From contig NC_043007.1 of assembly GCF_006345805.1 (NCBI RefSeq), forward strand, positions 24,428,001 through 24,492,000: DNA of 64,000 nt, read 5' to 3'. This DNA comes from Octopus sinensis (Eukaryota). Shown one piece after another: positions 1 through 164 of this stretch. The position numbers are program-made. Each line of letters starts with the position of its first letter. The first letter of the stretch is position 1.

Positions 1-164
1 TCCCAGGTGAGGATCGAACTCACGACCTTCAGATTCCTCAACATGTTTTGTTTGATTATGAGACTGACTACTAAGGCATTCTACTGTGCTACCAAGGCAT
101 CCTAAAAATATGGAACATTTCATGAATTTATGTGCCATCCTTGTGTGTCATATATATATTATAT

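What the first reader, a model, noticed from the sequence alone, without database searches (positions are those of the whole stretch)
1..145. U6 snRNA 3' end fused to an unspliced pre-tRNA-Met
Seen: on the minus strand the last 42 nt of U6 end in exactly five T. A 5-nt linker (AGGAT, 103-99) follows, then an intron-retaining tRNA-Met(CAT) in the same orientation. Known: mammalian U6/L1 and U6/RNA chimeric retrocopies join at the U6 oligo-U tail, and the tRNA-splicing ligase RtcB can ligate the U6 2',3'-cyclic phosphate to 5'-OH RNAs. Inference: this is (a) a retroposed U6-pre-tRNA chimera made by ligation or template switching, (b) a decayed copy of a real dicistronic or tandem U6-tRNA-Met Pol III locus, or (c) the head of a U6/tRNA composite SINE. 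I know of none of these in molluscs.
Basis: partly seen in the sequence, partly recalled or inferred. Interest (0 to 1): 0.8.

Follow-up and report, generated by a model that had tools for sequence, protein, structure and literature searches.

The report
U6 tail joined to tRNA-Met relic
A decayed copy of the last 42 bases of U6 spliceosomal RNA sits five bases in front of a decayed, intron-bearing methionine tRNA copy; it is most likely a fossil of two RNAs copied into DNA in one event, a known kind of accident with an unusual partner.

Summary
On the minus strand, 145..104 matches the last 42 positions of the Rfam U6 model (28 bits, E 7.3e-5 in 700 nt; below the gathering score of 44) and ends in exactly TTTTT (108..104). 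AGGAT (103..99) follows. Then comes a tRNA-like unit (98..1, cut by the window edge) with anticodon CAT (60..58) and a 22-nt insert (56..35). The insert lies one base after the anticodon and has the expected anticodon-intron pair.

The tRNA part is weak by model (16.7 bits, cut-off 29; ARAGORN finds none) and has 5 extra bases in its 5' half. Both pieces are pseudogenes. There is no second copy in the 64 kb, and no host genome was available.

Best reading (about 0.45): a template-switch chimeric retrocopy. A LINE reverse transcriptase reached the 5' end of an unspliced pre-tRNA-Met-like transcript, jumped to the 3' end of U6 and stopped after 42 nt. 5'-truncated U6 fused to L2, RTE, CR1 or RTESINE1 is described in vertebrates.

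Rivals: a remnant of adjacent Pol III genes, chance adjacency, a composite SINE, and a Dada-U6 transposon flank. The U6 breakpoint matches the Dada target, but nothing else supports that reading. The element's 3' end lies off the window, so none of these is settled.

The parts
104..146 (-). Decayed 3'-terminal fragment of U6 snRNA (Rfam model positions 64-105), ending in TTTTT at 108..104. The 5' two thirds of U6 are absent.
   Evidence: RF00026, 28 bits, E 7.3e-5 / 1.4e-5, 35 of 42 identical to the consensus; no U6 match at 185..245, even at E up to 10.
99..103 (-). 5-nt linker AGGAT between the U6 T-run and tRNA position 1. It could be a pre-tRNA 5' leader starting with a purine, or untemplated or spacer bases.
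   Evidence: direct reading. Its interpretation is an inference.
57..98 (-). tRNA-like 5' exon: acceptor strand, A box (TAGCACAGTAG, 10 of 11), a damaged D arm with 5 extra bases, the anticodon stem, and the loop up to A37. The anticodon CAT is at 60..58.
   Evidence: Rfam tRNA gives 16.7 bits (below the cut-off of 29).
35..56 (-). 22-nt intron-like insert at the canonical 37/38 position. [quoted passage not shown]
   Evidence: MFE folds. The rule is quoted from bioRxiv 10.1101/2020.08.03.234229.
1..34 (-). tRNA-like 3' exon: A38, the anticodon stem strand, the variable loop, an intact T arm with the B box (AGTTCGATCCT, 9 of 11), and 6 of the 7 acceptor bases. It is cut by the window edge.
   Evidence: (cut_off_at 3').
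150..197 (.). (TA)n microsatellite that abuts the 5' breakpoint of the U6 fragment. It is a flank or a later growth, not part of either RNA copy.
   Evidence: period 2, 25 copies.

Best explanation
This is a single chimeric retrocopy made at the RNA level by template switching.

A LINE reverse transcriptase was copying an unspliced Pol III transcript with an unprocessed 5' end, derived from an intron-containing elongator-type tRNA-Met(CAT) gene. That transcript was either a free pre-tRNA or the tRNA-derived head of a SINE RNA. The enzyme reached the transcript's 5' end (leader AGGAT), jumped to the 3' end of U6 snRNA, copied the U-tract and 37 more bases, and stopped. This left a 5'-truncated U6 piece fused head-to-tail to the tRNA unit.

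The insert has since decayed: base changes, a 5-nt gain in the tRNA 5' half, and a (TA)n array at the 5' edge.

What is shown: the two RNA-derived pieces, their shared orientation, the native-looking U6 3' end and the canonical intron architecture. What is inferred: the single-event origin, the enzyme and the nature of AGGAT.
For: 1. The U6 piece ends at the natural RNA terminus with five U. Moldovan et al. state that the major U6 form ends in a 5-base U tract (PMC6789731, passages).
2. The partner begins 5 nt before tRNA position 1 with a purine. This is what a primary Pol III tRNA transcript looks like (established knowledge), so two natural RNA ends meet.
3. Both pieces have the same orientation.
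4. The insert obeys the eukaryotic tRNA-intron rules. The template was therefore a precursor or a gene copy, not a mature tRNA.
5. There are precedents in Doucet et al. 2015 (PMC4476161, passages). Almost all platypus U6-L2 chimeras have a 5'-truncated U6. The paper also reports 5'-truncated U6 joined to RTE_Mdo and to the SINE RTESINE1 in opossum and to CR1 in turkey, and cites L1-mediated pre-tRNA retropseudogenes in human (Schmitz 2004).
6. Kojima 2015 (PMC4494074, passages) reports that RNA-gene pieces are added to SINE 5' ends by template switching.
7. LINE reverse-transcriptase debris is present in the window: RVT_1 E 0.0054 at 17167..17427 and an Atlas score of 0.96.
8. One event explains the native U6 3' end, its 5' truncation and the junction at a transcript 5' end.
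Against: - No target-site duplication, tail or SINE body can be seen, because the 3' end lies beyond base 1.
- Only one copy is known, and there is none elsewhere in the window.
- A bare pre-tRNA has no tail that a stringent LINE would recognise.
- Intron retention is equally expected for a DNA-level gene copy.
- The tRNA model score is below threshold and the fold is not better than shuffles.
- The U6 breakpoint coincides with the Dada-U6 target GCGCAA.
- AGGAT cannot be shown to be a leader.
- Doucet et al. found no clear TSD for the two opossum cases, so part of the precedent is itself tentative.
Confidence: 0.45

Rival explanations
1. A DNA-level remnant of two neighbouring but separately transcribed Pol III genes. 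A U6 gene had its terminator 5 nt upstream of an intron-containing tRNA-Met gene, perhaps within a small-RNA gene array. The locus then died, and the U6 5' two thirds were lost to a deletion and (TA)n growth.
For: [quoted passage not shown] An intron and an unprocessed 5' flank are what a gene copy shows. The A and B boxes are largely intact. An array could continue left of base 1, which is unseen.
Against: This reading needs at least two further events (loss of U6 positions 1-63, then decay). No U6 5' part or second unit was found at 185..245, 147..6450 or 7400..14450. There is no second tRNA-Met-like unit in 64 kb. TFIIIB for the tRNA would have to sit on the U6 3' end (inference). I found no described U6-tRNA tandem of this geometry in the listing.
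Confidence: 0.22
2. Two independent insertions that happen to abut. A U6-derived fragment and, later or earlier, a tRNA-Met-derived retropseudogene or SINE landed 5 nt apart in a repeat-dense genome.
For: The window is dense with tRNA-derived SINE-like units: five further A-box/B-box pairs in 64 kb, against 0 or 1 in each of 30 shuffles, plus the element at about 255..600. Close neighbours therefore arise by chance a few times per genome (my rough estimate).
Against: The junction joins two natural RNA ends in the same orientation, with no A-rich or other tail after the U6 T-run. A stand-alone U6 retrocopy would be expected to carry a tail or be 3'-truncated (Doucet 2015 classes). No known endonuclease preference places an element's 5' end at a T-run (inference).
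Confidence: 0.12
3. The right-hand flank of a Dada-U6 DNA transposon. The element inserted into a U6 gene at its specific target, so that only U6 positions 65 to the end remain next to whatever lay downstream, here a tRNA-Met gene.
For: Dada-U6 elements lie between U6 fragments 1-70 and 65-104, with the TSD GCGCAA. They occur in oyster, Capitella, Daphnia and fish (PMC3706591, section 4 read). The window's U6 homology begins exactly at the GCGCAA-equivalent ACACAA, 146..141.
Against: - No U6 1-70 fragment was found at E up to 3 in 147..6450 or at E up to 1 in 7400..14450, and none at 31.3 bits or more anywhere in the window.
- The sub-terminal motif CAGAGAAGA has 1 match in the window, at 29227 (+), against 0.40 expected by chance, and none next to the breakpoint.
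- No transposase was found among 97 ORFs (of 175 that passed my filters) scanned against Pfam. Dada may not be in Pfam, so this point is weak.
- The bases upstream of the breakpoint are a (TA)n array.
- The truncated-mode alignment hints at U6 homology continuing to position 55 (low posterior).
Confidence: 0.05
4. The head of a multi-copy composite SINE, or a dicistronic Pol III unit, in which the U6 tail and the tRNA-Met unit are transcribed and propagated together.
For: SINE heads can gain extra RNA-gene pieces at their 5' end, and snRNA-headed SINEs exist (Kojima 2015, PMC4494074, passages). The A and B boxes are largely intact.
Against: T5 lies between the two pieces and would stop Pol III (established knowledge). 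The internal tRNA promoter starts transcription at or just before the tRNA, so the U6 piece would not be in the transcript. There is no second copy in 64 kb, although other SINE families recur there.
Confidence: 0.05

Closest known systems
U6/LINE-1 chimeric retropseudogenes of mammals (Buzdin 2002 and Garcia-Perez 2007, as cited in PMC4476161; Moldovan 2019, PMC6789731)
   Same: The U6 3' end, including its U tract, is fused head-to-tail in the same orientation to the copy of another cellular RNA.
   Different: There the U6 is full length and the partner is a 5'-truncated L1, mRNA or Alu ending in poly(A), flanked by TSDs. Here the U6 is cut to 42 nt, and the partner is a complete 5' end of an intron-bearing tRNA-like transcript. 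TSDs and a tail cannot be seen, and the host is not a mammal as far as the repeats suggest (taxon unverified).
5'-truncated U6 joined to L2, RTE, CR1 or RTESINE1 in platypus, opossum, lizard and turkey (Doucet et al. 2015, PMC4476161, passages seen)
   Same: A 5'-truncated U6 3' segment lies upstream of a non-L1 retroelement or SINE, attributed to template switching by stringent LINEs.
   Different: The partner there is identified by its LINE-type tail. Here only a tRNA-Met-like head is visible. The authors note that TSDs were lacking for the opossum cases.
Tailless and pre-tRNA retropseudogenes (Schmitz et al. 2004; seen only as cited in PMC4476161; paper not read)
   Same: Retrocopies of tRNA precursors show that unprocessed nuclear pre-tRNAs can be reverse transcribed.
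   Different: Those stand alone, without a U6 piece. Details such as intron retention are not confirmed by anything I read.
Dada-U6 DNA transposon insertions (Kojima & Jurka 2013, PMC3706591)
   Same: They leave a U6 fragment starting at GCGCAA (positions 65-70), the same breakpoint as here, and they are known from a mollusc (oyster).
   Different: No Dada terminus, sub-terminal repeat, transposase or matching U6 1-70 fragment was found.
Pol III companion arrangements: trypanosomatid U6 genes with a divergent upstream tRNA gene, and yeast SNR6 with a B box downstream of its terminator (recalled, from no call)
   Same: A U6 gene is physically and functionally coupled to tRNA-type promoter elements.
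   Different: The geometry differs (upstream and divergent, or a bare B box). Here the U6 part is a dead fragment without its own 5' region.
SINEU, SINEs with snRNA-derived heads (Kojima 2015, PMC4494074)
   Same: snRNA-derived sequence sits at the 5' end of a retroposon, added by template switching.
   Different: The heads there are U1 or U2, not U6, and the families are multi-copy. Here there is one copy and a terminator between the parts.

Membership tests
U6 spliceosomal snRNA gene (Rfam RF00026) | Full-length match reaching the curated gathering score | tested here: not met
   28 bits against 44. Only model positions 64-105 align.
U6 spliceosomal snRNA gene (Rfam RF00026) | 5' stem-loop and catalytic core (model positions 1-63) present | tested here: not met
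   No U6 match at 185..245 at E up to 10. The alignment jumps over 63 model positions.
U6 spliceosomal snRNA gene (Rfam RF00026) | 3' end in a short U/T run | tested here: met
   TTTTT at 108..104 aligned to model positions 101-105.
Functional tRNA gene (Rfam RF00005 / ARAGORN) | Cloverleaf reaching the model cut-off | tested here: not met
   16.7 bits against 29. ARAGORN finds 0 genes. The D arm is damaged and the 5' half has 5 extra bases. The match is cut by the window edge.
Intron-containing eukaryotic pre-tRNA | [quoted passage not shown] | tested here: met
   The insert 56..35 can be placed after A37. C62:G37 pair in the MFE fold, with a 3-nt bulge at the 3' site. The placement is one of four equivalent ones, because ATC is repeated at both edges.
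tRNA-Met (elongator type) | Anticodon CAT in a 7-nt loop, with body sequence of the Met family | tested here: inconclusive
   CAT at 60..58 in the loop CTCATAA. The likeness of the 3' half to animal elongator tRNA-Met is recalled, not tested, because no eukaryotic tRNA reference was available. The spliced (joined) model was not searched.
U6 chimeric retrocopy (template switching or ligation) | U6 3' end with U tract at the junction, and partner in the same orientation | tested here: met
U6 chimeric retrocopy (template switching or ligation) | Target-site duplications around the whole chimera, and a LINE-type or poly(A) tail at its 3' end | not testable with these tools
   The 3' end lies beyond base 1 of the window, and no host genome is available.
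U6 chimeric retrocopy (template switching or ligation) | Both pieces absent together from the orthologous site of a relative | not testable with these tools
   No eukaryotic DNA collection is open. The only scan possible, of prokaryotic genomes, gave 0 matches.
Dada-U6 transposon insertion | U6 fragment starting at the TSD GCGCAA (positions 65-70) | tested here: inconclusive
   Homology starts at ACACAA, 146..141, which aligns to GCGCAA. However, a (TA)n array abuts it, and a low-confidence extension to position 55 exists.
Dada-U6 transposon insertion | Matching U6 1-70 fragment, sub-terminal repeats CAGAGAAGA/TCTTCTCTG, and a DDE transposase | tested here: not met
   Searches show no U6 5' fragment; 6451..7399 was covered only at 31.3 bits or more. 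One search gives one chance-level motif match 29 kb away. One search shows no transposase among 97 ORFs.
SINE | Many dispersed copies | tested here: inconclusive
   0 further copies in this 64-kb window. The genome could not be searched.
SINE | Whole unit transcribable from its internal Pol III promoter | tested here: not met
   The A box (10 of 11) and B box (9 of 11) lie in the tRNA part. The U6 piece lies upstream of them and ends in T5, a terminator (the role of T5 is established knowledge).

The most novel reading that the evidence does not exclude
The locus is a dead copy of a real coupled Pol III unit. In this unit a U6 gene is followed at 5 nt by an intron-containing tRNA-Met gene, whose A and B boxes recruit TFIIIC for both genes. 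This would be an animal counterpart of the yeast SNR6 downstream B box or the trypanosomatid companion tRNA genes. It would also show that this lineage has intron-bearing tRNA-Met genes, otherwise known to me (recalled) mainly from plants.
Probability: 0.06. Interest if true: 0.75.

Novelty: new variant of a known kind. Interest (0 to 1): 0.3.

Why it matters
If the single-event reading is right, it has three consequences.
- It extends U6 chimera formation by reverse-transcriptase template switching to a non-vertebrate genome. So far it has been documented in the mammals, platypus, lizard and birds covered by the papers I read.
- It adds a new partner, an unspliced tRNA precursor whose 5' end is unprocessed.
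- It implies that nuclear pre-tRNAs and U6 meet a LINE enzyme in the nucleus.

The retained insert would also be indirect evidence that this lineage has, or had, intron-containing tRNA-Met(CAT) genes.

These points are modest. This is one decayed locus with no sign of function, and the class of event is already known.

Tried and rejected
1. A full-length U6 hidden behind the (TA)n array. By eye, 217..192 recalled the U6 5' stem-loop, and the span 217..104 (114 nt) is close to U6 length. Rfam gives no U6 match at 185..245 even at E up to 10, and the model gains nothing from that stretch. Rejected.
2. A Dada-U6 flank. See the rival explanation; only the breakpoint fits.
3. Other copies in the window. 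blastn with word size 7 found only self-hits below E 0.1.
4. Defining the 3' end of the upstream SINE-like element from other copies. Only its core (about 537..469) recurs, at 62042..62110 and 36432..36496, so it is unknown whether the (TA)n is its tail.
5. ARAGORN with introns and relaxed thresholds gave only implausible calls (Thr, Asn, Leu with a 162-nt intron) and none for Met.
6. Thermodynamic support. The fold has the expected topology, but z = +1.18, so stability gives no support.
7. Taxon. A protein search with the ORF at 29108..29461 returned nothing at E up to 0.001 (near lengths only). The Atlas gave reverse-transcriptase clusters without useful taxa. The Pfam scan of 97 ORFs gave only a weak RVT_1 hit.
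8. A junction search in the only open DNA collection (prokaryotic genomes) gave 0 matches. This says nothing about the host.
9. Literature.
- The listings showed no paper describing a U6-tRNA chimera or a U6-headed SINE. Only the listings and the papers named in this report were looked at.
- Papers' supplementary tables, which list individual chimeras, were closed. They may hold U6-tRNA cases.
10. The spliced tRNA model (exons joined) was not built or searched. The Rfam run on the unspliced stretch aligned both exons around a 38-nt insert.

Full report
**What is there**

All coordinates in this section are on the minus strand.
- 108..104 is TTTTT.
- 103..99 is AGGAT.
- 98 begins a tRNA-like unit that runs to base 1 and is cut by the window edge.

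Upstream of the T-run, 145..104 aligns without gaps to positions 64-105 of the Rfam U6 model. The match scores 28.0 bits, with E 7.3e-5 in a 700-nt search and E 1.4e-5 in a 137-nt search. By my count on the alignment, 35 of 42 letters are identical to the consensus.

The score is below the curated gathering score of 44, so the default scan reports nothing. Scaled to the whole window, the E-value is about 7e-3 (my arithmetic). In the whole-window E-value run, microsatellite-driven microRNA false positives filled the 150 rows shown, down to 31.3 bits, so this hit was not listed. I take the U6 similarity as real. It is a fragment, not a gene.

**The tRNA-like unit**

The generic tRNA model gives only 16.7 bits against a cut-off of 29 (E 1.6, 0.34). 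ARAGORN finds nothing, and with relaxed settings it gives only implausible calls.

Direct reading shows these features.
- The acceptor strand is GCCTTGG, and 5 of the 6 visible pairs to the 3' strand form.
- The A box is TAGCACAGTAG (10 of 11) and the B box is AGTTCGATCCT (9 of 11).
- The T arm is intact.
- The loop is CTCATAA, with CAT at 60..58.

A 22-nt insert (56..35) can be placed exactly one base after the anticodon. In the minimum-energy fold, C at 62 (tRNA position 32) pairs with G at 37, the third base from the insert's 3' end, and the 3' boundary lies in a 3-nt bulge.

This is the architecture required of eukaryotic tRNA introns. [quoted passage not shown] By my rough estimate a random insert would satisfy both conditions about once in a hundred. 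The insert is therefore best read as a real tRNA intron.

Three results count against a working gene.
- The 5' half has 5 surplus bases, and GCCTTAGTAG at 77..68 echoes the 5' end.
- The D stem is damaged.
- The fold is no more stable than shuffled sequence (z = +1.18; 176 of 200 shuffles fold at least as well).

The unspliced stretch was searched as it stands.

**Surroundings**

- A (TA)n array at 150..197 abuts the U6 breakpoint.
- No U6 5' part lies at 185..245, at 147..6450 (E up to 3) or at 7400..14450 (E up to 1).
- Neither piece recurs in the window.
- A tRNA-derived SINE-like element lies at about 255..600 on the same strand. Only its core recurs elsewhere in the window.
- Five other A-box/B-box pairs mark further SINE heads, against 0 or 1 in each of 30 shuffles.
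- A reverse-transcriptase fragment lies at 17167..17427.
- No call established the organism.

**Mechanism**

Two natural RNA ends meet in one orientation. One is the U6 3' terminus with five U, which Moldovan et al. describe as the major form (PMC6789731). The other is what looks like the 5' end of a primary tRNA transcript, a 5-nt leader beginning with a purine.

The simplest account is template switching. A LINE reverse transcriptase copied an unspliced pre-tRNA-Met-like RNA, or a SINE RNA with such a head, to its 5' end. It then continued on the 3' end of U6 and aborted after 42 nt.

Doucet et al. (PMC4476161, passages) give the precedents.
- They describe 5'-truncated U6 segments fused to L2 in platypus (almost all of 40 chimeras).
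- In opossum they find such segments fused to RTE_Mdo and to the SINE RTESINE1, without clear TSDs.
- In turkey one is fused to CR1.
- They also cite L1-mediated pre-tRNA retropseudogenes.

Kojima (PMC4494074) documents RNA-gene pieces added to SINE 5' ends in the same way.

It needs a 5'-OH, and a 5'-triphosphate dramatically reduced ligation (PMC6789731). A native Pol III 5' end is a triphosphate, and RNase P leaves no 5'-OH on a leader (established knowledge).

**Rivals**

- *A remnant of neighbouring Pol III genes.* This is possible, since mixed tRNA/snRNA arrays and U6 arrays exist (PMC3706591). It needs extra events to remove U6 positions 1-63.
- *Chance adjacency.* This is not negligible in so repeat-dense a genome. 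It does not explain why two native ends meet, or why no tail follows the U6 T-run.
- *A composite SINE or a dicistronic unit.* The T5 terminator between the parts argues against both.
- *A Dada-U6 transposon flank.* I raised this because the U6 homology starts exactly at the GCGCAA target of Dada-U6. None of the other hallmarks was found.

**Limits**

The decisive features are the 3' end, the tail, target-site duplications, copy number and orthologous sites. All lie outside the window or need the host genome, which no open tool holds. The only DNA scan possible, against prokaryotic genomes, gave 0 matches and is uninformative. Supplementary tables of the chimera papers were closed and may list similar cases.

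**Verdict**

The most likely origin is a one-off chimeric retrocopy of a known kind with an unusual partner (confidence about 0.45). Interest is modest.

Noticed in passing
window 255..600 (minus strand), flanked by a microsatellite at 600..672: A tRNA-derived SINE-like element lies just upstream of the finding on the same strand. Only its central core (about 537..469) recurs in the window, at 62042..62110 and 36432..36496, at 82-84% identity. This suggests a shared core domain across different SINE families.
   Followed up: partly
window 13105..13159, 25096..25150, 34739..34793 (+); 36567..36513, 14285..14232 (-): There are five tRNA-type A-box/B-box pairs with gaps of 32-33 nt. Three have identical boxes (TGGCCTAGTGG / GGTTCGAATCT) and so probably belong to one SINE family. 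Shuffles give 0 or 1 pair. Neither ARAGORN nor Rfam at gathering level calls any of them a tRNA.
   Followed up: no
window 6600..7300, 14600..15230, 38000..38500, 40100..40700 and many others: Dense TA/TG/CA microsatellites produce hundreds of sub-threshold Rfam 'microRNA' matches (mir-297, mir-466, mir-3149 and others): 343 matches at E up to 5, none reaching a gathering score. They also produce long low-complexity open frames. These are artefacts of composition.
   Followed up: yes
window 17167..17427 (-): This is a fragment of a LINE reverse transcriptase: Pfam RVT_1 E 0.0054, below its cut-off, and Atlas nearest clusters 'endonuclease-reverse transcriptase' at 0.96. I suspected LINE or transposase debris at 29108..29461, 33384..33689 and 5086..5316 by eye, but Pfam does not confirm any of it.
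   Followed up: partly
window 48440..48649 (+), 59135..59515 (-), 62183..62410 (+): Three stretches translate to closely similar peptides (starting TQRGQTRTD.../KGQTRTDKGIK...). They are probably copies of one more repeat family of unknown type.
   Followed up: no
window 98..89 and 77..68 (minus strand): Inside the tRNA-like unit, the first ten bases GCCTTGGTAG recur as GCCTTAGTAG, 21 nt downstream. This accounts for the surplus bases in the 5' half. It could be a small internal duplication or a trace of two tRNA 5' ends joined.
   Followed up: no
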